Of a stretch of 9,450 nucleotides of DNA, positions 239 through 9,450 are shown piece by piece. Source of the stretch: a virus (Duplodnaviria > Heunggongvirae > Uroviricota > Caudoviricetes). A program made the translations under genes and the position numbers. Under the pieces are notes generated by a model. The model made no database searches, was not told the origin of the DNA, and saw only the letters and a list, made by a program, of their open reading frames with translations. The stretch lies in the IMG/VR virus record IMGVR_UViG_2711768034_000006, positions 1-9,450 of that record; one strand, written 5' to 3'. Numbering within the stretch: the first letter of the stretch is position 1; every line of letters starts with the position of its first letter.

Positions 239-2554
239 TCAGAACGGTTTATCTTCGCCGTCACCGGCTGTTTCTGTCATCACTTCCTGTGCGTCACACA
301 GGGGCGGCATACCTGCACGCGCCATCTGCGCTTCACGTGACTGCGATTTGCCGTCAGCGTTCAGCCATTTGGCCTTATTGCGCAGAATCCAGCAGCGGCT
401 TGCCTTGCCGTGAACCTTAATCGGCCCATCAATTTGCAGCGCGCCAGCTTCTTCCATTGCGCGGCGCATGGCAGGTGTGAAGCGGCTTTCTTCACCGTCT
501 GACAGCACATTTGCAATGTCACCTTGCGTGATAACGTCAACCGGCCATGACAGCACCAGGCGGTCAGCGTTCTTCTGCGTCATCGACTTCGCAGCGCCAA
601 TCACTGACTGTTTGGCCGCGTTCATCGGCGGGCGTTCGCCAGGGTTAAAGCTGCTTATGTCGCGCTCCGCCAGGAACACAGCCACAGCGTTGATAAACTC
701 GCGGTCGTTCAGCGCAGCATAGAGCGTGGCGTAAACTTCCTGCGGGCGCGGCTCTGCTTCGTGATGCACGATGCGCCAGCGGCGGTCTGTGTCGTCAATC
801 GGCAGCGCGTTAAGGTGGTTACTGAACACCAGCCAGCGCATGGCGTTGTGTTCACGGTGCTGGCGGCCATACTTCGGGTTCACGTCACGATATTCAGCCG
901 TAACGATGCTGCGCAGTTTGTTGGTGTGACTGTAGCGGTTTTCGCTCACCCCGGCCTGAATCTCGTCAACGATGGCCAGAACGCGCCCAGCTAACTGGCC
1001 GTTGAACTGGCTATCAAGCAGGTTAGGCAGGTCCACGTTCGGTGCCACATAGCCACGCCATACGCGCGCCAGGACGCTGGCCAGCCAGTTGCGGCCTGTG
1101 CCGGTTTTGTTGGCCACGTGCAGCCAGCCATAGTGCGGAAGTTCGCCTGGCTTCTGCTCCAGGTGTGCCAGCCAATCCAGGAATTTTTCGCGCTCTATGG
1201 CATCCGGGAATAGGTAGGCTACATGGTCCAGAAACAGGCTGATGCCTGTCGTGGCTTCTTTGCGTTCGAGCGGTCGCCAGGTGTTGATTGCAGGGCGTCC
1301 ATCCGGGTCACGGCAGAAGATGCCCGCGCCAGGGTGGAATGTCCGAGTGATAACCGTTTTGCGCTGCGGGTCTTGTTGCCACAGAACGGCGGTAGGCACC
1401 GGCTTTTTGCGCTCGTCGCTCAGTGTCATTGACGCTGACGTAAGCTGGCGGAATTCCTTCCAGGTCATAAACATTGTTGTGTCATTGACGCTGGCCACCA
1501 TTTCACCGCTTGCGATCCACACCATAGATTCCAGCATTTCTTCGCGGGACATCGACGGCGGCAGGATGCTGACTGTTTCCGGCTGTTGCAGGCGGGCGTT
1601 TTCTTCCTGCTGCAAACGGCGGCGGGTTTCTTCCGCCACGTCAACCACGCCACCAGCGCGCGCATTGTTAAGCGCAGCCAGGACCGCATCAGCACCTTGC
1701 TCCTGGTGCAAATCATTAACATCTTTGCCTTCTGCCAGGTCGGACGGCAGGGTGGCAACCGCAAAGCCAGTGCGGAAAGCGTCAGATTCTTTGCCACGGT
1801 CAGGGACTATGACCGGAACAGCACCAGCGGCCTTGATGATGTCGGCAGCCTTGCGGATGTTGCCAGCACCAAAGGAAACCACGGCAGCGCAGCCGGTGAC
1901 GGCGTTCACGCTCCAGGCGTGGCCGATACCTTCCACGATGTAGGCTTTCTGGCCTTTCTCCAGCTTTCCAGCCGTAAATGTGCCATCCATAGGGCAGCCA
2001 CTGGCGTTGCGCTTCTCTCCTTTGTTTGGCCCTACGAACTGTAAGGAAACCAGGTTTCCGCTTGATGACCAAACAGGGATTGCCAGCCAGCCTTTCAGGC
2101 TTTTGCTTCCGCTCCTGATGTCCTGCGTAACAACGCGCAGGCCGTCAGGCTTGCCCCACTTGCGCATGATGTACGGGTGTTCAGCGGTCGCAGGTTCTGA
2201 CGCAGCCCAAATGTCAATCGGGTTGTGTTTGGCTTTTGGCTTCTCAATAGGTGCCTTTTCCGCCCTGGCTGTTGGGTCATTCCACTGCGCCACGTTACGC
2301 GCCAGCCAGAACAGCGTGTTTTCAGTCACCGAACCGTCAATCTTAAAGCTACCCCAGGCGGAACGCACATCCGCTTCATTGCGGTAGTTGGTTGCGCCCT
2401 GGCTCCAGTTATGGAAGTCATCGAATGACAGGCCAGCAGCCTTTGCAGCGCAGCCAATGCGTGCCCAATCACGGCGTGAACAGTCGTTCGGCAGGGATTC
2501 CAGGGCGCTAAGTGCGCGCTCCATGTTGGTGATTTGGTCGTATGCCAGACTCAT
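239..2554 (-). CDS. Primase / SF3 helicase, phage P4 alpha-like replication initiator (771 aa)
   Basis: Long ORF; N-terminal Trp-rich region; DnaG/Toprim-like EGxxxA motif (IVEGIGHAW, aa 206-214); helicase-like region with Walker B-like LAIVDEIQ (aa 524-531) and SF3 motif C-like LVFSNH (aa 575-580); ATGA start/stop overlap with upstream orf77; GGGGG Shine-Dalgarno. Confidence 0.85.
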   Translation of the reverse strand: MSLAYDQITNMERALSALESLPNDCSRRDWARIGCAAKAAGLSFDDFHNWSQGATNYRNEADVRSAWGSFKIDGSVTENTLFWLARNVAQWNDPTARAEKAPIEKPKAKHNPIDIWAASEPATAEHPYIMRKWGKPDGLRVVTQDIRSGSKSLKGWLAIPVWSSSGNLVSLQFVGPNKGEKRNASGCPMDGTFTAGKLEKGQKAYIVEGIGHAWSVNAVTGCAAVVSFGAGNIRKAADIIKAAGAVPVIVPDRGKESDAFRTGFAVATLPSDLAEGKDVNDLHQEQGADAVLAALNNARAGGVVDVAEETRRRLQQEENARLQQPETVSILPPSMSREEMLESMVWIASGEMVASVNDTTMFMTWKEFRQLTSASMTLSDERKKPVPTAVLWQQDPQRKTVITRTFHPGAGIFCRDPDGRPAINTWRPLERKEATTGISLFLDHVAYLFPDAIEREKFLDWLAHLEQKPGELPHYGWLHVANKTGTGRNWLASVLARVWRGYVAPNVDLPNLLDSQFNGQLAGRVLAIVDEIQAGVSENRYSHTNKLRSIVTAEYRDVNPKYGRQHREHNAMRWLVFSNHLNALPIDDTDRRWRIVHHEAEPRPQEVYATLYAALNDREFINAVAVFLAERDISSFNPGERPPMNAAKQSVIGAAKSMTQKNADRLVLSWPVDVITQGDIANVLSDGEESRFTPAMRRAMEEAGALQIDGPIKVHGKASRCWILRNKAKWLNADGKSQSREAQMARAGMPPLCDAQEVMTETAGDGEDKPF

Positions 2555-2784
2555 GCCGCACCCCCTGCCTTGCGCTGCATATCCAGCGCCATTTGCCAGG
2601 CGTCCACGCGGTTGAACGGGAAGCGGGTGTTCTCTGCCAGGTGCCCCAGGTAGATGGAATATTGCAGCGGGCGGCCAGACTGGATGGCCTGCTTAATCAG
2701 TTCCTGCATGATGGCCACGCACTGTGCGTGCGTCTGGCTGGTAGCAGGTTCGCGCATAAGGCGATGCAGGGTGATGATGCTCAT
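2551..2784 (-). CDS. Hypothetical small protein (77 aa), tandem paralog of orf91
   Basis: ATGA overlaps at both ends (2781-2784 and 2551-2554); GGGGGTGCG motif just upstream of ATG; shares DAW motif and AGGA C-terminus with orf91. Confidence 0.55.
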   Translation of the reverse strand: MSIITLHRLMREPATSQTHAQCVAIMQELIKQAIQSGRPLQYSIYLGHLAENTRFPFNRVDAWQMALDMQRKAGGAA

Positions 2785-3056
2785 TTCGCACCCCCGGCAA
2801 TCTGCGCCAGGACGGTGGCCACTTCGCGTTCCGCCAGTTGTTCAGCGTAGGCGTGCGCAGTGATGCGCCAGGCGTCATCTTTGTTCAGGCGGTAGGCTTT
2901 GTTCCCGCGCATTACAATGCGGTAGGTTGCTTCCGCTGTGTCGGTGATGCTTGAACCGTTGCGCAGCATAGCGTCAGCGAATTTGAACGCAGCATCACAG
3001 CGAGTTTCAACGGTTCTGGTTTTCAGGATGGCGTCAGCCAGGTCGTGCAATTTCAT
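2781..3056 (-). CDS. Hypothetical small protein (91 aa), first gene of primase operon
   Basis: ATG at 3056 with GAGGAA Shine-Dalgarno about 8 nt upstream; translationally coupled to orf77; no family recognised. Confidence 0.55.
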   Translation of the reverse strand: MKLHDLADAILKTRTVETRCDAAFKFADAMLRNGSSITDTAEATYRIVMRGNKAYRLNKDDAWRITAHAYAEQLAEREVATVLAQIAGGAK

Positions 3057-3457: not shown

Positions 3458-5734
3458 TTACGGTGCTGCTAATCCGTCATTCATCATGCTACGATTTCGG
3501 ATTCCTTGCTGCTGTTTCAGCTTCTGCGCCACCTTATTTGCCAGCGCATCTTCATTCATGCCAGGCTCGGCCTTCACGTTGATGGTGTACTGGTCGTTCG
3601 TGTTCACCGTTGTGTTGCCGGTGCGGTTAGCCAGTGCCGGTGAAGGCAAGGACGCACCAGGGGCGGCGGTCGCTGCTGGCTGGCTGCTTTCGTCTTCACC
3701 GAACGGATTGCTAAAGAAATCTTTGGTTTTCTGCCACGCACCACCAGCAACATCAGACACGGCGTTTTTAAACTCCAGTGCCTTGTTGGTCAGGTTGCCG
3801 ATGTTGTCAGACACCCACAGAATCTTATCAATCAGGAACGTGATCGGTGCGGTCACAAGCTCGATGCCAGCCGCCAGGGTCTTACCGAACGTCATCCCCA
3901 TTTTACCGGCCTTATCCAGTTCCTCGCCGCTGTATTTGACCGGTTCGGTCAGTGACGTGAACCAGTTGAAAACCGTCTTAACCGCAGCACCCACACCATC
4001 AATGACAGGTTTCAGCGGCCCCATGCGTTCATAAAGGCGGCTCAGAGCTTCGCTAAGCGGTTCCAGCCCGGATTTGATGCCTTCACCCACTCCGCCAAAG
4101 AAAGCCTTCACACCGGCCCAATGGCGGTAAATCTGATAACCTGCCAGCGCCAGGCCAGCTACGGCAGCACCCACGCCAGTGGATATGAACGCCGCACCAA
4201 CGGCACGAATGCCGGTAGCCACCGCAGGCAGGCCACGGGTGCTGGCCAGAACGGCAGATGCGTTCATGCGGGCAAACAGGCTGGACATCTGCAACACGCC
4301 ACCTTTCAGGAACGTGAACGCAAAGCCAGCGGCGAACGTCGCCACACGTAGTGCCACCAGTGCACTGGAACCAATAACCACTGCTTTGGTCACGGTAGGG
4401 TATTCGCGCGCCAGTTCGGCAACCTTGCCGATAACCGGGCCAACGGTAGCCAGAACGCCGTTGAATGCTGGCAGCAGCACTGTGCCGATCGTGACGCCCA
4501 GGTTAGACACACGGTTGTTGAAAATCTTAAGCTGTGCCGACGTTTTGGCGGTGGCTGCCTCATATTCAGCCTGCATAGAACCGGCATATTTGGTCTTGTC
4601 TTTGACCATGTCCAGATTCTTTTGGTACGTATCAAGCTGTGTCAGCATTGGTGCGATAGCGCCAATCGATTCCTTACCAAACAGTTGCGAAAGCGTTGCC
4701 GCCTGCATGTGTTTTGGCAGCTTGCTGATCTTGGACAGGATGACGCGGATTGTTTCATCGGCGTTCAGTTGCATTGATTTTGCAACCTGCTTGGATGTGA
4801 AGCCAAGCTGTTTAAACGCTTCACGCTGTGACTTCGTGGCGGATGCGCCAGCGGTCAGGGATAGCAGCAGGTTTTTAATACCGGTGGCCGCAATCTCATT
4901 CTGCACGCCCATACCGCGCAGCGTTGCACCCATCGCAGCGATAGAACCGGAAGCTGCACCAGCGACGCTGCCAAGCGGCCCGATGCGCTGCGTGATTTCC
5001 AGGATGTCTTTGGCTGATGCGGCGGTGTTGTTGCCCAGGTAGTTGATCTTGTCAGCCAGAACGTTCATCTGGTCCTGCGTCATCCCGAAGGCGGCGCGCA
5101 TCTCTGCCATTGCCTGGCCTGCCTGGTCGGCGCTGACGTCAAAAGCCACACCCATTTTGATGGCCGATTCAGCAAACTTGGTTAGTTCGCTGGTGGCGAT
5201 GCCTGATTGAGCACCAGCGGCAACAATCTTGCCGATTTCGTTGGCTGCCATCGGCATTTTGGTTGACATATCCTGGATAGCCTGGCCCATCTTAACCAGG
5301 CCGTCAGGGGTTTCGAAGTTGGCAACCTTGCGGATATCTGCCAGCGTATCTTCAAAATCCATAGCCTGTTTGATCGGTACAGCTACCGTTGCGCCAAGTG
5401 CGACAGTCCCCAGGATTCCTTCTTTGTAGCCTTGACGCTTCGCCAGGTTGCGTTCGCGGGCATCCTCCACGCGTTTCAGGCGTTCGGTGGCAGAACGAAG
5501 GCGTTCAACCTGCCCGACAACCGTTTGATAGCGGTCCTTCATGCGGGAGAATATCGCGCTATCCTGGCCATAACGCTTCATTGCTTCATTTAACTGGCGC
5601 TGTTCGCGCGACAGCTTAGAGATTGCGCTACCAATCTCGACGGTATTTTTCTTTACAGTTCCAAATGCACCACGAAGGCTGCCGGAAACGGCCCCACCAA
5701 TCGTGATTTTTGCATTTAACTTCTTGTTGGCCAT
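3458..5734 (-). CDS. Phage tail tape-measure protein-like (758 aa)
   Basis: Coiled-coil, A/G/Q-rich N-terminal half typical of tape-measure core regions; long central hydrophobic Gly/Ala-rich segment (about aa 440-540); size typical of siphovirus tape-measure proteins; ATG at 5734. Confidence 0.75.
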   Translation of the reverse strand: MANKKLNAKITIGGAVSGSLRGAFGTVKKNTVEIGSAISKLSREQRQLNEAMKRYGQDSAIFSRMKDRYQTVVGQVERLRSATERLKRVEDARERNLAKRQGYKEGILGTVALGATVAVPIKQAMDFEDTLADIRKVANFETPDGLVKMGQAIQDMSTKMPMAANEIGKIVAAGAQSGIATSELTKFAESAIKMGVAFDVSADQAGQAMAEMRAAFGMTQDQMNVLADKINYLGNNTAASAKDILEITQRIGPLGSVAGAASGSIAAMGATLRGMGVQNEIAATGIKNLLLSLTAGASATKSQREAFKQLGFTSKQVAKSMQLNADETIRVILSKISKLPKHMQAATLSQLFGKESIGAIAPMLTQLDTYQKNLDMVKDKTKYAGSMQAEYEAATAKTSAQLKIFNNRVSNLGVTIGTVLLPAFNGVLATVGPVIGKVAELAREYPTVTKAVVIGSSALVALRVATFAAGFAFTFLKGGVLQMSSLFARMNASAVLASTRGLPAVATGIRAVGAAFISTGVGAAVAGLALAGYQIYRHWAGVKAFFGGVGEGIKSGLEPLSEALSRLYERMGPLKPVIDGVGAAVKTVFNWFTSLTEPVKYSGEELDKAGKMGMTFGKTLAAGIELVTAPITFLIDKILWVSDNIGNLTNKALEFKNAVSDVAGGAWQKTKDFFSNPFGEDESSQPAATAAPGASLPSPALANRTGNTTVNTNDQYTINVKAEPGMNEDALANKVAQKLKQQQGIRNRSMMNDGLAAP

Positions 5735-5755: not shown

Positions 5756-5962
5756 TTAATTAAGTAAATTTTCTGCAAGGGTGTGTTCACCGATTGCCCG
5801 CAAGGCGGCAGCGGCCAGTTGCAGGGCGCATTCGGTGCGGTAGTCTCGCTGTTTCTGCATTCCCTCCGCTGTTTCGCAAACCATAACTTTGGGCAGGACC
5901 ATATCCACCAGTTCAGGCCAGGGGTTTGTTCCTTCCGGTTTTGTGTGAATACGGTCCAGCAT
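5756..5962 (-). CDS. Hypothetical small protein (68 aa)
   Basis: ATG with AAGGGGG Shine-Dalgarno 6-7 nt upstream; immediately upstream of tape-measure gene; no family recognised. Confidence 0.45.
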   Translation of the reverse strand: MLDRIHTKPEGTNPWPELVDMVLPKVMVCETAEGMQKQRDYRTECALQLAAAALRAIGEHTLAENLLN

Positions 5963-5971
5963 GGTGCCCCC

Positions 5972-6181
5972 TTATGCGGTTTTGCTTTCTGTTGGTTTGT
6001 CGTTGGCGGTGATGTCGCGCATCCCAAACGTGATACCTTTCCAGGACTTCATCGCGCCGCTAAGGTTCTTGATCGCCAACTTTTGTGCGTCGGTCAGTTG
6101 GCTTGCGTTGTTCTTCGTCATCTTGTCGGCTACGCCGATGACGTTCAGAACGGCTTCATAAATGTTGTTGTTGGTTGCCAT
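5972..6181 (-). CDS. Hypothetical small protein (69 aa)
   Basis: ATG at 6181, GGAG about 10 nt upstream; 9-nt gap to orf68; no family recognised. Confidence 0.45.
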   Translation of the reverse strand: MATNNNIYEAVLNVIGVADKMTKNNASQLTDAQKLAIKNLSGAMKSWKGITFGMRDITANDKPTESKTA

Positions 6182-6183
6182 TC

Positions 6184-6501
6184 TTATGCGCTCCGCACCA
6201 GGATAGCGCCGCGCTTCACTGCCTGGCGCTTGGCCCGTTCACCGGAACTGATGCGGCTGGATGGTTGCCACTTCTTGCGTTCCAGGGTCGATGCGTGGCT
6301 TTCCGCTTCGTTGCGCATGGCGCGACCGGCTTCATCGGTCATGTGTTCGAATGCGTTTAAACGGTTGCGAAGGCTGGCCAGCAGGTCGGCTGCTTCGTAG
6401 CTGATTGGGTTTTTCTCTGAAATGGTTTGGAAACGCTTTGTTTCGCTAAGGATCAAACGCGCTTCTTCTTTCATTGATTCGTACAGGTCATGGTTTTTCA
6501 T
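6184..6501 (-). CDS. Hypothetical protein (105 aa from internal ATG; ORF-track start at 6633 probably a spurious extension)
   Basis: N-terminal 44 codons of the long ORF are W/S/T/P/H-rich and not protein-like; MKNHDLYE start at 6501 gives a helical, basic-tailed protein; no clear Shine-Dalgarno at either start. Confidence 0.4.
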   Translation of the reverse strand: MKNHDLYESMKEEARLILSETKRFQTISEKNPISYEAADLLASLRNRLNAFEHMTDEAGRAMRNEAESHASTLERKKWQPSSRISSGERAKRQAVKRGAILVRSA

Positions 6502-6715
6502 AGTATTGGCCGCTAACAATAGTTGTTGATGATTAAGTGAGTGCGCGCTTTTAGGTGACAGGTGCGGCGCAACCGGTGTGGAATTAGTGGTGGTTTTGAC
6601 CGTCCAGGATGACCACCAACCTGGTTCCAGCATCCATCGTCTGAGGAACGATGAAGGTTAAATTTGGCCGGTTATTTTGGGCACAGGGAACCGGTGAAAC
6701 CTGTATTCTTGGCCA

Positions 6716-6880
6716 TTATTTGCCGTTCAGCCCGCTACTCAGAAACTTTTCAATCACCTGGCTGCGTGAAGGGCGGATGCCTGTTCTGCGTTCCAGTTTG
6801 GCTTGCTCTCTTTCGACCTGGCGCACCAGGTCAGGGGCGAGGCGTACCGTTACGTGCTGGCGTGTTTCTTGTCGTTTCAT
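6716..6880 (-). CDS. Ribbon-helix-helix (Arc/CopG-like) DNA-binding protein, 54 aa
   Basis: My own translation of the minus strand: MKRQETRQHVTVRLAPDLVRQVEREQAKLERRTGIRPSRSQVIEKFLSSGLNGK; beta-strand/helix/helix pattern resembling Arc; below the ORF-track size cutoff; ATG 3 nt after orf104 stop. Confidence 0.7.
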   Translation of the reverse strand: MKRQETRQHVTVRLAPDLVRQVEREQAKLERRTGIRPSRSQVIEKFLSSGLNGK

Positions 6881-6883
6881 GGC

Positions 6884-7198
6884 TTAATACCTGCTCATCC
6901 AGCTTTCGCGCTTCTGTTTCGGGCGCTGCTCGCGGTAGTGACTGCGCACCAGGGAGGCGAGGTAATTCACGGCGCGTTCAATCTGGTACTGCTTAAGCTC
7001 CGGGTAAGCCTTGCGAATCCATTTTTCAGCAGCGTCATCGCTGTAGATGAATCCTGACCAGCCAACCGGCTGCACTACGATGCGCGGTGTGTTTTCATCA
7101 CCGTGGCGCACATACATGGCCACACCTTCGATAGCTGCCAGGATTTCACCCGGCAGGGCAGCGCGCTCCGCTGCCGCTTTTTTGCTGCCCCACCACAT
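6884..7198 (-). CDS. Hypothetical protein (104 aa; ORF-track start at 7204 is TTG)
   Basis: ATG at 7198 sits 2 nt after the upstream TGA; AAGG Shine-Dalgarno about 7 nt upstream; no family recognised. Confidence 0.5.
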   Translation of the reverse strand: MWWGSKKAAAERAALPGEILAAIEGVAMYVRHGDENTPRIVVQPVGWSGFIYSDDAAEKWIRKAYPELKQYQIERAVNYLASLVRSHYREQRPKQKRESWMSRY

Positions 7199-7200
7199 GA

Positions 7201-8085
7201 TCAAGCCTTCCAGAACATAGTTGAGTCAGGCACCAGTGCGGATGCGTTCACCCACACAACGATTTCAACGGCACCATTCAGCACGCGGCGGGCGGTGACG
7301 CGGATTTCATCATCCAGGGCAACGGCTGCATTGCCGAAAGCGCCAATGATTGTGCTGGAAGTCTGGCCGCTGATTTCAGCGCGTACACCGTAGGCACGCA
7401 GAACGCCGTCTTGCAGTTCCAGGCCGGTGCAATCACCGCCAACAATGGCTTTAACTTCATCAAAGCGCAGGTTTTTGGCTGCAATCTTCTGCGCCACTGC
7501 GGTGAATGACGGGCTGGTAAGGGTTTCCGCTGCGCTTTCCAGGTGGTTCAGCAGCACGAAGTCAGCCAGATCGGCAATACCGCGTTCAATGGCGGTGTTG
7601 ACCGCTTCCAGCACTGTATCGTCAGCGAATTCGTGTTTCAGTTGCTGGCGGGTCAGGGTGTAGCCAACGCCGTAAGCCGGTGCGGTGTTGTGGTCGAATG
7701 CTGCAACCATGTACGGCTTGCCGCTCATGCTGATTTCTTCGCCGTCAGTAACTTTGGCGAACGCACCAGGGCGGATGACAACGAAGCGGTCAGCCACTTC
7801 GAGGCCAGTCGTTGCACCAGTCTGGCCAGTCGGCTGCGTGGTCATCGGGCCAGGAATGCGGATGATTTCAGCGCCTGCCTGTGCCACCAGCGAACGTTCA
7901 GCCAGAACAGCGTTGAAGGTGGTCTGCTTGCCACCTTTCGGGGTCAGCACGTCATTCATGGACAGGTAGCGAACTGCTGCCGGTTCCATAGGGATAAATT
8001 GAGTAATATCACCGTTGCCATCAGTGCGAACATGGCCGCCCTGGTGGTTCAACGCGTCGTTGATAAGTTGAGATAAAACGTTCAT
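7201..8085 (-). CDS. Beta-rich structural-like protein of unknown family (294 aa), first gene of operon 2
   Basis: ORF-track start at 8169 is TTG with a non-protein-like leader; ATG at 8085 has GGAG 8-9 nt upstream; A/G/T/V-rich composition like capsid or tail proteins; no motif recognised. Confidence 0.65.
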   Translation of the reverse strand: MNVLSQLINDALNHQGGHVRTDGNGDITQFIPMEPAAVRYLSMNDVLTPKGGKQTTFNAVLAERSLVAQAGAEIIRIPGPMTTQPTGQTGATTGLEVADRFVVIRPGAFAKVTDGEEISMSGKPYMVAAFDHNTAPAYGVGYTLTRQQLKHEFADDTVLEAVNTAIERGIADLADFVLLNHLESAAETLTSPSFTAVAQKIAAKNLRFDEVKAIVGGDCTGLELQDGVLRAYGVRAEISGQTSSTIIGAFGNAAVALDDEIRVTARRVLNGAVEIVVWVNASALVPDSTMFWKA

Positions 8086-8219
8086 TAAAAATGCTCCGGT
8101 TGTTGTGCAATAAATCGTCTGGAATGACTTAAAGATATACAGTAACCAGACCGAACACAATAGCCACAATGTGAGCTTTTTAATGTAAAATCAGTAACTT
8201 ATAACCCTGAATACTTGCA

Positions 8220-8249: not shown

Positions 8250-8379
8250 ATTTACACATCTTTACAATTCAGCATGTGTAAAACGTGTTCGCTTTATTTT
8301 GCAATCGCGCACGTATGGTGCCAGTGCTTTGATAAGGTTCACATAAATGATTGATTTACTTGACGTAATCATAAAGTGA

Positions 8380-8570
8380 GTTTTGGAGGGGCACGCACAA
8401 CGCGAATTACGCGGGACCAATGCCCCCGCCCTGTACTGCCGCCGAGGAGGACCCTTCGATTTTTGAGGCAGGCAGGCGGCCAGGCGGTGCGCGCAAGGTC
8501 CATTATGTTAAATCGCGGAGTTTGCAGGCAGAAAGAAGCACCAGGAAGGTGCTGGCAGGCGAACGGCGCA
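8380..8570. other. GC-rich non-coding island with nested short hairpins (candidate cos/pac site or structured RNA)
   Basis: Abrupt GC-rich stretch inside an AT-rich intergenic region; inverted repeats GGGGCA/TGCCCC (8388-8426), CGCG-aatta-CGCG (8401-8413), AGCACC-aggaa-GGTGCT (8537-8553); both overlapping ORFs translate to non-protein-like sequence. Confidence 0.3.
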
Positions 8571-9065
8571 TAATCTGACATATTCCGCGCGCTTTCAGCC
8601 CGTATTCACTCAGGCTTATTGTTGCGATATGTGCAACGTTCTGGCTGTTTACTGAACAGCTACTGTTTGAACGCAAAACAAGGCTGAAAGGCTCGTTTCC
8701 TGTAGTTACATCATACTTCTGTATGTTGTACCTATTCCGGCTGCTGCTTTGGTTAGACGTGAAAAAGCGTGGTTACGAATGAGCGGACCACCACCAGCAC
8801 CCATGCCGCCCAGGCACCCCATCCGGTTACAACGCTGAATTGAGTTGTAACCGTGTTATGTTTCTGAAAAATAACAAATTTCGTGCAATCGGTTACAACG
8901 GTTACGCCAAGTTCATAAAGTTTGGAAAAAGCACTATGGGTATATAGGAATATACGAATTTCTTTTTTTTACTAATCTGTTGTAACCATTGTAACCGGAA
9001 TGGGTAAAATCATTAATATTCAGTGGCTTGCGTGGTTACAACGCCGGTTACAACACCGATTTTGC

Positions 9066-9092
9066 GTTGTAACCGTTGTAACCGTTGTAACC
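9066..9092. repeat. Three perfect tandem copies of GTTGTAACC
   Basis: Read directly. Confidence 0.9.
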
Positions 9093-9103
9093 GTAGTAGG
9101 CAT

Positions 9104-9129
9104 AAAAAAGCCCCGGCAGATGCCAGGGC
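9104..9129 (-). terminator. Intrinsic terminator ending the primase operon
   Basis: Minus-strand RNA GCCCUGGC-AUCU-GCCGGGGC (8-bp stem with one G-U, 4-nt loop) followed by UUUUUU, 25 nt after orf74 stop. Confidence 0.55.
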
Positions 9130-9151
9130 GGTCAGAACAAAAATTGTTGTA

Positions 9152-9450
9152 ACGTTACGGGCTGGCAAACGGCACGATTTCGGCTGATGCCACCTCCCTG
9201 GTGCGATAACTACACAGCAGGTTCCGCCCTAGCTTGACCAGTTCCTGCTGCACGCCTGGCAGCCGGTCGCGAGCATGGTCTACCGCTTCCTGTTCAGTGG
9301 CGAAACCCTCCATAATTTCGGTTTCGGTGTAGGTGCCGTGTTCCGGGTCAAAAGCAATGATATATGCGCGATAACTCATGGTTTAGCCCTCAGAACGGTT
9401 TATCTTCGCCGTCACCGGCTGTTTCTGTCATCACTTCCTGTGCGTCACAC
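9152..9450. repeat. Wrap-around duplicate of window positions 1-299
   Basis: Identical sequence; the ORF track lists the same 74-aa protein at 4..228 and 9155..9379. Confidence 0.9.
9155..9379 (-). CDS. Second copy of the 74-aa hypothetical protein (same locus as 4..228 via wrap-around)
   Basis: Identical translation in ORF track. Confidence 0.55.
   Translation of the reverse strand: MSYRAYIIAFDPEHGTYTETEIMEGFATEQEAVDHARDRLPGVQQELVKLGRNLLCSYRTREVASAEIVPFASP

What the first reader, a model, noticed from the sequence alone, without database searches (positions are those of the whole stretch)
7201..8085. First gene of operon 2 is an unassigned 294-aa beta-rich protein
Its composition resembles capsid, tail or receptor-binding proteins, but I recognise no motif. 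Given the tape-measure gene downstream, it may be a tail-associated or capsid-remodelling factor, and it is the largest unknown in the element.
Basis: inference. Interest (0 to 1): 0.4.

Follow-up and report, generated by a model that had tools for sequence, protein, structure and literature searches.

The report
Satellite plasmid's own capsid protein
The unassigned 294-aa gene encodes a capsid-shell (HK97-fold) protein belonging to a 9-kb parasite of Jilinvirus phages, an element that carries the phage's DNA-packaging site and its own tail tape-measure gene but no other virion genes, so it probably builds a miniature head for itself.

Summary

The window is a 9,151-bp circular plasmid. It has an iteron origin, a primase and a tape-measure protein 59% identical to Jilinvirus TMPs. 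It also carries an exact copy of the Jilinvirus cohesive end (GGGGCATTGGTCC, 8414-8426) with its terminase-proximal flank. It has no portal, terminase, protease or other tail genes.

Every sampled relative, from E. coli to Pseudomonas and soil bacteria, sits in an 8-10 kb integrase/primase element, never in a phage. One Salmonella lineage is integrated inside a helper-type prophage's head gene.

Best reading: a satellite-encoded capsid protein that makes satellite-sized heads (the size fits T=3). The fold and the satellite context are well supported. Shell formation, capsid size and the helper relationship are inferred. It is a new variant of a known kind (compare Ccm, cf-PICI and EPIP capsid genes).

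The parts
7201..8085 (-). Target gene: 294-aa HK97-fold major-capsid-protein-like protein (MCP-like)
8094..8097 (-). Shine-Dalgarno GGAG, 8 nt before the ATG
   Evidence: Read from the sequence.
8151..8169 (-). Conserved upstream block TTGTGGCTATTGTGTTCGG (possible promoter or regulator site; function unknown)
   Evidence: Conserved among related elements. Unique in the window. Absent from phage ECO1230-10.
8392..8466 (-). cos site of Jilinvirus type. The 13-nt cohesive end GGGGCATTGGTCC is at 8414-8426, the terS-proximal flank at 8392-8413 and the distal flank at 8427-8466.
   Evidence: 38 nt are 97% identical to non-coding DNA just upstream of terS in ECO1230-10, ep3 and PT1, and to the physical ends of the linear records of Arya and ECOO78. 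ECOO78 repeats the 13-mer at both ends. Conserved in sister elements.
8815..9165 (.). Iteron field (GGTTACAAC and its complement, many copies in both orientations): probable plasmid replication origin
   Evidence: the repeat finder families D1, D2, D5, D6 and inverted pairs I1-I23.
9110..9129 (-). Terminator-like hairpin plus T-run that ends the replication operon
6884..7204 (-). p106 (104 aa from the ATG at 7198): partner gene whose start overlaps the target's stop codon; function unknown
6716..6880 (-). 54-aa ORF with a ribbon-helix-helix-like N-terminus (VTVRLAPDLVRQVE)
   Evidence: ORF list. A 54-aa ORF is annotated at the same position in the E. coli island L014. The RHH assignment rests on inspection only.
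6184..6633 (-). p149. The conserved part is the C-terminal ~105 aa from M45 (6184-6501), 33% charged: candidate scaffold, by inference only.
   Evidence: tblastn shows conservation of residues 49-148 in Serratia. Composition.
5972..6181 (-). p69, small ORF upstream of the TMP (candidate tail chaperone, untested)
5756..5962 (-). p68, small ORF immediately upstream of the TMP (candidate tail chaperone, untested)
3458..5734 (-). Tail tape-measure protein, 758 aa
   Evidence: PF10145 and phrog_28. 59% identical over its full length to ECO1230-10 gp10 (781 aa). All best phage relatives are Jilinviruses. Swapped as a cassette between sister elements.
239..3056 (-). Replication operon: p91 (2781-3056), p77 (2551-2784) and a 771-aa PriCT_2/Toprim/DUF5906 primase-helicase (239-2554)
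9155..9379 (-). p74 (identical to 4-228 because the window overlaps itself); last gene of the replication operon, conserved next to the ori-cos region in both plasmid and integrated forms

Best explanation
The gene encodes the capsid-shell protein of a phage satellite. The window is a 9,151-bp circular plasmid that parasitises Jilinvirus-type myoviruses (ECO1230-10, ECOO78, ep3, Arya, Bas97). It replicates from its own iteron origin with its own primase, and it carries the helper's cos site.

Proposed mechanism: when a helper infects, the operon starting with this gene is expressed. The 294-aa HK97-fold protein, which is the size of a mature capsid protein and lacks a protease or scaffold domain, assembles on the helper's portal into a small shell, probably with the co-conserved small proteins p106 and p149. 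The helper terminase cuts at the satellite cos and packages one cos-to-cos unit. The head then joins a helper tail built around the satellite's own tape-measure protein. A genome of about 9.15 kb fits a T=3 head if the helper is T=7.

Shown: the ORF, purifying selection, the HK97 fold (predicted), recurrent protease fusions in relatives, the exact cos match, the TMP homology, the absence of other virion genes, and the restriction of the family to 8-10 kb elements.

Inferred: shell formation, use of the helper portal and terminase, the T number, the roles of p106 and p149, and induction by the helper.

For: Genomic association with head assembly. P0097 and P0099, and 8 of 10 other long relatives, carry an N-terminal Peptidase_S78 prohead protease fused to this domain. 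In P0097 and L016 that protease is 50-60% identical to the protease domain of Jilinvirus gp27.

Satellite identity. The window is a 9,151-bp circle and matches ~9-kb non-mobilizable plasmids. It has the exact 13-nt Jilinvirus cohesive end plus flanks. Its TMP is 59% identical to Jilinvirus TMPs. tblastn with Jilinvirus TerL, portal, gp27 and sheath finds none of them in the 12 related loci surveyed, and every window ORF of 68 aa or more was scanned without a virion-gene hit other than the TMP.

Family distribution. All sampled contexts are 8-10 kb integrase- or primase-bearing elements: E. coli, Serratia, Salmonella, Pseudomonas and five metagenomic lineages. tblastn finds no relative in 50,697 phage genomes. 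The pairing of MCP-like gene and TMP recurs in Pseudomonas (39% and 34% identity) and in L033.

Size constraint. 37 contigs have a median of 9,166 bp with SD 282 bp, and the integrated Salmonella copy is 9,166 bp. The satellite-to-helper genome ratio of 0.22 equals the geometric T=3/T=7 ratio of 0.22-0.25.

Physical link to the helper type. Salmonella members are integrated, with a 16-nt att repeat, inside a gp27-type head gene of a Jilinvirus-like prophage.

Precedents. cf-PICI, Ccm and EPIP satellites encode capsid proteins, and PLE11 assembles chimeric tails with its own TMP.
Confidence: 0.55

Rival explanations
1. Ccm-like size redirector. The protein does not form the whole shell. It co-assembles with the helper's gp27 capsid protein, for example by occupying the pentamer positions, and so forces helper subunits into a small isometric capsid, as SaPIbov5 Ccm does with phage phi12.
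Against: Ccm is 24% identical to its helper capsid protein and keeps a delta domain. Here there is no detectable similarity to gp27: hhalign probability is 5% and pairwise scores fall within shuffles. Many relatives carry their own fused prohead protease, the architecture of a self-sufficient shell protein. Salmonella members interrupt the helper-type head gene itself.
Confidence: 0.22
2. Interference or defence protein. The capsid-like protein mainly poisons helper head assembly and so protects the host population, while the plasmid is packaged, if at all, as multimers in normal helper heads.
For: A tetramer is 88% of the helper genome length. Satellites commonly interfere with helper assembly, and PLE11 Rta blocks tail assembly. 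The chromosomal copies in E. coli have no resident helper.
Against: There is no PADLOC hit. The narrow unit size (SD 282 bp) and the conserved cos point to packaging of the element itself. Protease-fused relatives look like productive capsid proteins. Interference and redirection are not mutually exclusive.
Confidence: 0.1
3. Tail-associated or receptor-binding protein, the first reader's alternative, working with the downstream tape-measure protein.
For: It lies in the same operon as the TMP, and it is mixed alpha/beta with 31% strand.
Confidence: 0.03
4. Encapsulin-like nanocompartment shell, or a decaying remnant of a prophage head gene with no current virion role.
Against: There is no cargo gene, and the context is a cos-bearing mobile element. 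Purifying selection (dN/dS 0.11-0.26) and conserved synteny from E. coli to Pseudomonas argue against decay.
Confidence: 0.05

Closest known systems
SaPIbov5 Ccm (cos capsid morphogenesis protein; PDB 7rwz_A)
   Different: Ccm is 24% identical to its helper capsid protein, keeps an N-terminal delta domain and fills only the pentamers. The present protein has no detectable sequence similarity to the helper gp27 and no delta-like domain. Its family often carries its own fused protease. The helper is a Gram-negative myovirus, and the element also replaces the TMP.
cf-PICI major head protein (EcCI2, PDB 9gyi_B; EcCIEDL933 family)
   Different: cf-PICIs are ~15 kb and encode the whole head and packaging set (protease, portal, connectors, HNH, TerS, TerL), and the prototype has no tail genes. 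This element is 9.15 kb, has only the capsid protein plus small unknown ORFs, uses the helper's cos, and encodes a TMP. Identity to the EcCI2 protein is 13%.
PLE11 of Vibrio cholerae (chimeric tails with a satellite TMP) and EPIP satellites of Mycolicibacterium (MCP plus TMP)
   Same: Both are satellites that substitute their own tape-measure protein. EPIPs also encode a capsid protein and show small heads.
   Different: PLE11 uses helper coat protein with an external scaffold (TcaP) rather than its own capsid protein. EPIPs additionally encode terS, head-tail adaptor and stopper, a scaffold and a serine integrase, and they infect Actinobacteria. No homology to either was tested here.
Satellite phage P4 (helper P2)
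   Same: A small cos-bearing satellite that can live as a plasmid or integrated, with a large primase-helicase and iteron-type origin, parasitising a myovirus and using the helper terminase. Related integrated forms have an integrase and an AlpA-type regulator.
   Different: From my own knowledge of P4: it redirects P2 capsid protein with the external scaffold Sid, decorates the shell with Psu, and has no capsid-protein homolog and no TMP. No Sid, Psu or Delta family was hit here. The cos is of Jilinvirus type, not P2 type.
Jilinvirus gp27 'major head protein' (prohead protease-scaffold-MCP fusion, 682 aa; NCBIfam NF045541 type)
   Same: It is the head protein of the presumed helper. Fused relatives of the target (P0097, L016) share 50-60% identity with its protease domain.
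   Different: The capsid domains are unrelated at sequence level, and the window protein has no protease or scaffold part.

Membership tests
HK97-fold major capsid proteins (structural class) | HK97 fold: long spine helix followed by beta-rich A and P domains | tested here: met
HK97-fold major capsid proteins (structural class) | Assembles into a closed icosahedral shell | not testable with these tools
   Needs expression with EM, or virion proteomics.
HK97-fold major capsid proteins (structural class) | Membership of a curated capsid sequence family (for example PF05065 Phage_capsid, NCBIfam or PHROG capsid models) | tested here: not met
   No hit in Pfam, PHROGs or NCBIfam at E<=0.1. hhalign against the helper PF05065-type capsid domain gives probability 5%.
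HK97-fold major capsid proteins (structural class) | Genomic association with a prohead protease | tested here: met
   Not in the window itself. Relatives P0097 and P0099, and 8 of 10 other long family members, are Peptidase_S78 fusions.
cf-PICI (capsid-forming PICI) | Encodes a major capsid protein | tested here: met
cf-PICI (capsid-forming PICI) | Encodes a portal, head maturation protease and head-tail connectors | tested here: not met
   No portal or protease family is hit by any window ORF. tblastn with the Jilinvirus portal finds nothing in related loci. The small ORFs p106, p149, p69 and p68 remain unassigned, so a connector cannot be excluded.
cf-PICI (capsid-forming PICI) | Encodes its own packaging proteins (HNH, TerS, TerL) | tested here: not met
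   None in the window. Some sister elements (L015, L018, L034) carry a terS only.
cf-PICI (capsid-forming PICI) | int-alpA-rep backbone, ~15 kb, no tail genes | tested here: not met
   The window has no integrase, is 9,151 bp and encodes a TMP. Integrated sister elements do have int and an AlpA/HTH regulator.
Ccm-type capsid size redirector (SaPIbov5) | Recognisable sequence homolog of the helper's capsid protein (24% identity for Ccm) | tested here: not met
   tblastn finds no match in any phage. hhalign probability is 5%. Pairwise scores fall within shuffles.
Ccm-type capsid size redirector (SaPIbov5) | Encoded by a cos-type satellite that uses the helper's terminase and portal | tested here: met
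   A helper cos is present and the window has no terminase or portal. Actual use of the helper proteins is inferred.
Ccm-type capsid size redirector (SaPIbov5) | Occupies pentamers in a mixed shell and cannot form capsids alone | not testable with these tools
   Needs cryo-EM and complementation experiments.
P4-like satellites | Sid, Psu and Delta capsid-remodelling and regulatory genes | tested here: not met
   No such family was hit in Pfam or PHROGs.
P4-like satellites | Large primase-helicase plus helper-type cos, with a plasmid or integrated lifestyle | tested here: met
   A PriCT_2/Toprim/DUF5906 protein, iterons, cos, and both plasmid and integrated forms. The cos is of Jilinvirus type, not P2 type.
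Phage satellite (general) | Lacks most virion genes but carries a helper packaging signal | tested here: met
Phage satellite (general) | Helper-dependent induction, packaging and transfer | not testable with these tools
   Needs infection and transduction assays.
Encapsulin | Shell gene next to cargo proteins that carry targeting peptides, in a non-viral context | tested here: not met
   The neighbours are a TMP, a primase and cos, and no cargo-type family was hit.

The most novel reading that the evidence does not exclude
This protein is the hallmark of a widespread, so far undescribed class of minimal satellites of about 9 kb, found as plasmids or integrated, in Enterobacteria, Pseudomonas and soil bacteria. 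These elements replace just two helper virion parts, the capsid shell protein and the tape-measure protein, and borrow the portal, terminase and the rest of the tail. With a genome 0.22 times that of the helper, the shell would be an isometric T=3 head, smaller than any tailed-phage or satellite capsid so far reconstructed. Some members go further and integrate site-specifically into the helper prophage's own head gene.
Probability: 0.3. Interest if true: 0.8.

Novelty: new variant of a known kind. Interest (0 to 1): 0.6.

Why it matters
It turns the largest 'hypothetical protein' of a common ~9-kb enterobacterial plasmid or island into a testable capsid gene. Homologs occur in 65 of 5,426 complete E. 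coli genomes and in Salmonella, Klebsiella, Enterobacter, Proteus, Serratia and Pseudomonas.

It also defines a capsid-protein family that Pfam, PHROGs and NCBIfam all miss and that, in every context sampled, belongs to satellites rather than phages.

If the mechanism holds, these elements form an intermediate class between satellites that only remodel helper capsids (P4, SaPI, PLE) and those that build complete heads (cf-PICI). They would be a second Gram-negative example of TMP substitution after PLE11. They would also be a candidate for the smallest tailed transducing particle.

In practice, 'non-mobilizable' 9-kb plasmids would in fact be phage-mobilised. Annotation pipelines and satellite finders could use this protein together with the Jilinvirus cos as markers.

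Tried and rejected
- **Family scans of the target.** Pfam, PHROGs, NCBIfam and PADLOC gave no hit.
- **PDB sequence search with the family profile.** Only noise was returned (dihydropteroate synthase, E=0.18).
- **Target against sequenced phages.** tblastn against 50,697 phage genomes found no match.
- **Target against the helper capsid protein gp27.** hhalign gave probability 5%. Smith-Waterman scores for the N-terminus and for the whole protein fell within shuffles. I therefore rejected the idea that the target's N-terminus derives from the helper's post-protease segment.
- **Helper-responsive promoter.** No sigma-70 promoter lies upstream of the gene. The perfect dyad TTTACACAT-N14-ATGTGTAAA (8251-8282) was found in none of the 26 loci then held. 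The conserved block at 8151-8169 is absent from ECO1230-10.
- **Genome-contig scan.** The first attempt errored and the second found no relative among the species-representative genomes.
- **IMG/VR scan.** Only two close relatives were found.
- **Resident helper in E. coli.** No Jilinvirus terL occurs in 5,426 complete genomes. A repeat of the E. coli gene search added nothing.
- **Literature.** No paper links Jilinviruses or ECO1230-10 to satellites. General searches turned up the precedents (Ccm, cf-PICI, EPIP, PLE11) but no description of this family. The library is incomplete, so prior description elsewhere cannot be excluded.
- **My own error.** In the upstream-region alignment I gave two sequences, L007 and L014, on the wrong strand. 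Only the other five rows were used.

Full report
**1. The observation**

The window is a 9,151-bp circle read with 299 bp of redundancy: positions 1-299 equal 9152-9450. All credible genes lie on the minus strand.

The reported interval 7201-8085 is an ORF on that strand. The mechanical ORF starts at a TTG at 8169, but the ATG at 8085 gives the 294-aa product. That start is the one used by about 100 homologs, nearly all 288-303 aa long. A GGAG lies 8 nt upstream.

The gene is under purifying selection: dN/dS is 0.11-0.26 in six pairwise comparisons among four elements. A profile of the family finds 275 clusters in a library of 1.84 billion representative proteins, 251 of them at E<=1e-10. So the ORF is real.

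It is also truly unassigned. Pfam, PHROGs, NCBIfam and PADLOC give no hit, and a profile search of PDB sequences gives nothing significant.

"Beta-rich" is only half right. The model is 31% strand and 27% helix.

The operon claim fits the layout, although no promoter was found. Reading along the minus strand, the order is:
- the replication operon's terminator (9129->9110)
- an iteron field (about 8815-9165)
- a cos site
- the target gene
- p106, whose start overlaps the target's stop codon
- a 54-aa ORF
- p149, p69 and p68
- a 758-aa tape-measure protein (PF10145 E=3.5e-39; phrog_28 E=1.5e-129)

**2. What the protein is**

An AlphaFold2 model built from 28 diverse homologs has mean pLDDT 75.6 and pTM 0.73. 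It shows a 29-residue helix (157-185) followed by a beta-rich C-terminal half.

- Foldseek against predicted viral structures returns 219 matches at E<=1e-3. The named top hits are HK97-type major capsid proteins or prohead-protease/capsid fusions.
- No tail, receptor-binding or enzyme fold appears among the hits listed.

Independent genomic evidence agrees. Two relatives at 51-53% identity (P0097, P0099) have a Peptidase_S78 prohead protease fused N-terminally to this domain, as do 8 of 10 longer, more distant family members. NCBIfam recognises the N-terminus of P0097 as the protease part of a "prohead protease/major capsid protein fusion". One source already names a Serratia homolog "phage major capsid protein". 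The window protein aligns from the point where the protease part of the fusions ends. It therefore corresponds to a mature-size capsid protein with no protease or scaffold.

**3. What the element is**

The window matches a handful of ~9-kb plasmids typed as non-mobilizable, from E. coli, Salmonella and Proteus. Its only nucleotide similarity to phages at megablast level is in the TMP, to Jilinvirus-type myoviruses. The TMP is 59% identical over its full length to ECO1230-10 gp10 (758 vs 781 aa). All of its best phage relatives are Jilinviruses.

A sensitive search of the non-coding DNA found 38 nt (8392-8429) that are 95-97% identical to unannotated DNA in seven Jilinvirus-type phages: ECO1230-10, ep3, PT1, Arya, ECOO78, Bas97 and Alux-21. 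In ECO1230-10 the match lies immediately upstream of terS. In the linear records of Arya and ECOO78 it lies at the physical genome ends.

ECOO78 repeats the 13-mer GGGGCATTGGTCC at both ends, which is how a cohesive end shows up in a linear record. Arya starts 4 nt upstream of that sequence. The window carries this 13-mer exactly (8414-8426, minus strand), together with the terS-proximal flank and a related distal flank. The plasmid therefore carries the Jilinvirus cos site.

It encodes no terminase, portal, protease, sheath, tube or baseplate genes.

**4. The family is satellite-specific**

I sampled contexts from close to very distant relatives:
- E. coli chromosomal copies (65 of 5,426 complete genomes, 64 of them chromosomal). 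These lie in a 9,573-bp island at the 3' end of fis, flanked by a 17-nt repeat. The order is integrase, HTH, VapE replicase, p74, cos, MCP-like gene, p106, small ORFs, TMP.
- Serratia islands at the same fis locus, without a TMP.
- Pseudomonas islands: int, AlpA, VapE/DUF5906, MCP-like (39% identity), a p106 homolog, Phage_tail_X, TMP (34% identity).
- Metagenomic and other assembly-derived elements L011, L016, L031/32, L033 and L034.
- Further close relatives L017-L026.

All are 8-10 kb elements with an integrase and/or a primase-helicase. None is a complete phage. tblastn with Jilinvirus TerL, portal, gp27 and sheath finds none of them in the 12 loci surveyed, apart from the gp27 protease domain fused to the MCP-like gene in L016. 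tblastn of the target against 50,697 phage genomes finds nothing.

The pairing of MCP-like gene with TMP recurs in at least three deep lineages (E. coli type, Pseudomonas, L033). p106 is co-conserved with the target throughout.

Unit sizes are narrowly distributed. The circular units are 9,151, 8,955, 9,205 and 8,854 bp. Thirty-seven homolog-bearing contigs have a median of 9,166 bp and an SD of 282 bp.

**5. A direct physical link to the helper type**

In Salmonella, the protease-fused relative P0097 lies in a 9,166-bp integrase-bearing insert flanked by a 16-nt direct repeat (ATCCCCAAACAAACAG). The ORFs on either side of the insert match residues 9-453 and 446-680 of Jilinvirus gp27, the 682-aa protease-scaffold-capsid fusion. 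So the satellite is integrated inside the head gene of a Jilinvirus-like prophage.

P0097 is a chimera. Its protease domain is 50% identical to the helper's. Its capsid domain belongs to the satellite family and shows no similarity to the helper's capsid domain.

**6. How it most likely works**

Shown or directly read:
- predicted HK97 fold
- protease fusions in relatives
- helper cos site
- own TMP
- own replicon
- absence of other virion genes
- satellite-only distribution
- tight size distribution

Inferred: on helper infection the protein assembles on the helper portal into a shell sized for one cos-to-cos unit. The helper terminase fills it. The head then joins a helper tail built around the satellite's TMP.

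Simple geometry gives a T=3/T=7 capacity ratio of 0.22-0.25 (9.2-10.2 kb for a 41.7-kb helper) and a T=4/T=7 ratio of 0.38-0.40. The observed ratio is 0.22. This assumes a T=7 helper, which has not been measured. ECOO78 is reported with a 47-nm isometric head and a 149-nm tail. A tetramer (88% of helper length) would also fit a normal head, so the small-capsid inference is not forced.

I favour an all-satellite shell over a Ccm-like mixed shell for three reasons. There is no sequence similarity to the helper capsid protein, whereas Ccm has 24%. Relatives carry their own fused proteases. One lineage interrupts the helper-type head gene. On the other side, the lack of a scaffold, protease and portal in this element keeps the mixed-shell rival alive.

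The TMP is 23 residues shorter than the phage's, so the tail length should be almost unchanged. Between otherwise near-identical elements the TMP is exchanged as a cassette: the MCP-like protein is 97-99% identical while the TMP is only 60-63% identical, and the reverse also occurs. The experimentally shown precedent is PLE11, which builds chimeric tails with its own TMP, chaperone and hub and thereby escapes its own anti-TMP protein.

**7. Comparison with known systems and novelty**

Satellite-encoded HK97 capsid proteins are known:
- Ccm of SaPIbov5
- cf-PICIs, which encode the complete head and packaging set in ~15 kb, with no tail genes in the prototype
- EPIPs of Mycolicibacterium, which encode a capsid protein, scaffold, adaptors, terS and a TMP

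This element fails the defining features of cf-PICI: it has no portal, protease or terminase, it has a TMP, and it is 9 kb. It fails those of P4-like satellites: no Sid, Psu or Delta. It also fails the helper-homology feature of Ccm.

It is best described as a new variant of a known kind: a minimal cos satellite, plasmid or integrated, that supplies only its own capsid protein and tape-measure protein. I found no description of it in the searchable literature, but that library is incomplete.

**8. Weaknesses**

- Everything functional is inferred.
- The fold rests on a model of moderate confidence.
- No promoter or helper-responsive element was found.
- p106 and the other small ORFs remain unassigned.
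- No Jilinvirus-type terL is present in any complete E. coli genome, so the helper must arrive by infection.
- No sequenced phage has a TMP closer than 60%, so the true helper is not pinned down.

**Verdict**

The gene is a satellite capsid-shell protein of an unannotated family. Interest is moderate to high (0.6).

Noticed in passing
L001 4672-13838 (also L002; L013 3966-12357): In Salmonella, a 9,166-bp member of this satellite family (integrase, AAA_25 helicase, protease-fused MCP-like P0097) is inserted inside the protease-scaffold-capsid gene of a Jilinvirus-like prophage, flanked by a 16-nt direct repeat (ATCCCCAAACAAACAG). The satellite therefore targets the helper-type prophage's own head gene as its attachment site.
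   Followed up: partly
window 3458-5734 compared with L007, L014, L015, L019, L020, L022-L026: The TMP gene behaves as an exchangeable cassette. Elements whose MCP-like protein is 97-99% identical carry TMPs only 60-63% identical. L015, with an 88% identical MCP-like protein, carries a 94% identical TMP. There are at least three satellite TMP types, none more than 60% identical to any sequenced phage TMP.
   Followed up: partly
L015 10036-10515; L018 5929-6405; L034 7664-8206: Some sister elements carry a small terminase subunit (43% identical to Jilinvirus TerS in L015 and L018; Nu1-type in L034). L015 and L018 lack the Jilinvirus cos sequence, which suggests an alternative way of redirecting packaging within the same satellite family.
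   Followed up: partly
window 8815-9165: A dense field of GGTTACAAC iterons in both orientations lies between the replication operon's terminator and cos, presumably the plasmid origin. The replication module is itself swapped between forms: a 771-aa PriCT_2/DUF5906 primase without integrase in plasmids, and integrase plus a 562-aa VapE protein in chromosomal islands. p74 stays conserved next to the ori-cos region in both.
   Followed up: partly
window 6716-6880 (-): A 54-aa ORF between p106 and p149 has a ribbon-helix-helix-like N-terminus (VTVRLAPDLVRQVE). It could be a DNA-binding regulator or a cos-binding factor inside the morphogenesis operon.
   Followed up: no
window 8251-8282 and 8151-8169 (-): A perfect 9-nt dyad (TTTACACAT-N14-ATGTGTAAA) lies ~170 nt upstream of the target's start, and a conserved block (TTGTGGCTATTGTGTTCGG) lies ~65 nt upstream. 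Both are candidate regulatory sites. Neither is found in phage ECO1230-10.
   Followed up: partly
plasmid CP077066.1 (hit H1, 17,382 bp): This E. coli plasmid matches the window at two places and has two PriCT-2 genes, so it looks like a dimer or co-integrate of two ~8.7-kb units.
   Followed up: no
L014 7152 and 16725; L004-L006: The integrated E. coli and Serratia forms sit at the 3' end of fis (17-nt repeat AATACGGCATGAACTAA in E. coli). The Serratia islands carry variable cargo such as a SocA_Panacea-domain protein between the primase and the MCP-like operon, and they lack a TMP.
   Followed up: partly
E. coli complete genomes: No Jilinvirus-type large terminase gene is found in any of 5,426 complete E. 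coli genomes, although 65 carry the satellite gene. The helper would have to be an infecting phage rather than a resident prophage in E. coli.
   Followed up: partly
L031 13481-21566: In a soil metagenome contig, a distant family member's island lies next to a block of genes that includes a Glyco_hydro_108 lysozyme, a Big_1-domain protein and several large unassigned ORFs. This may be another case of a satellite sitting beside or inside a prophage.
   Followed up: no
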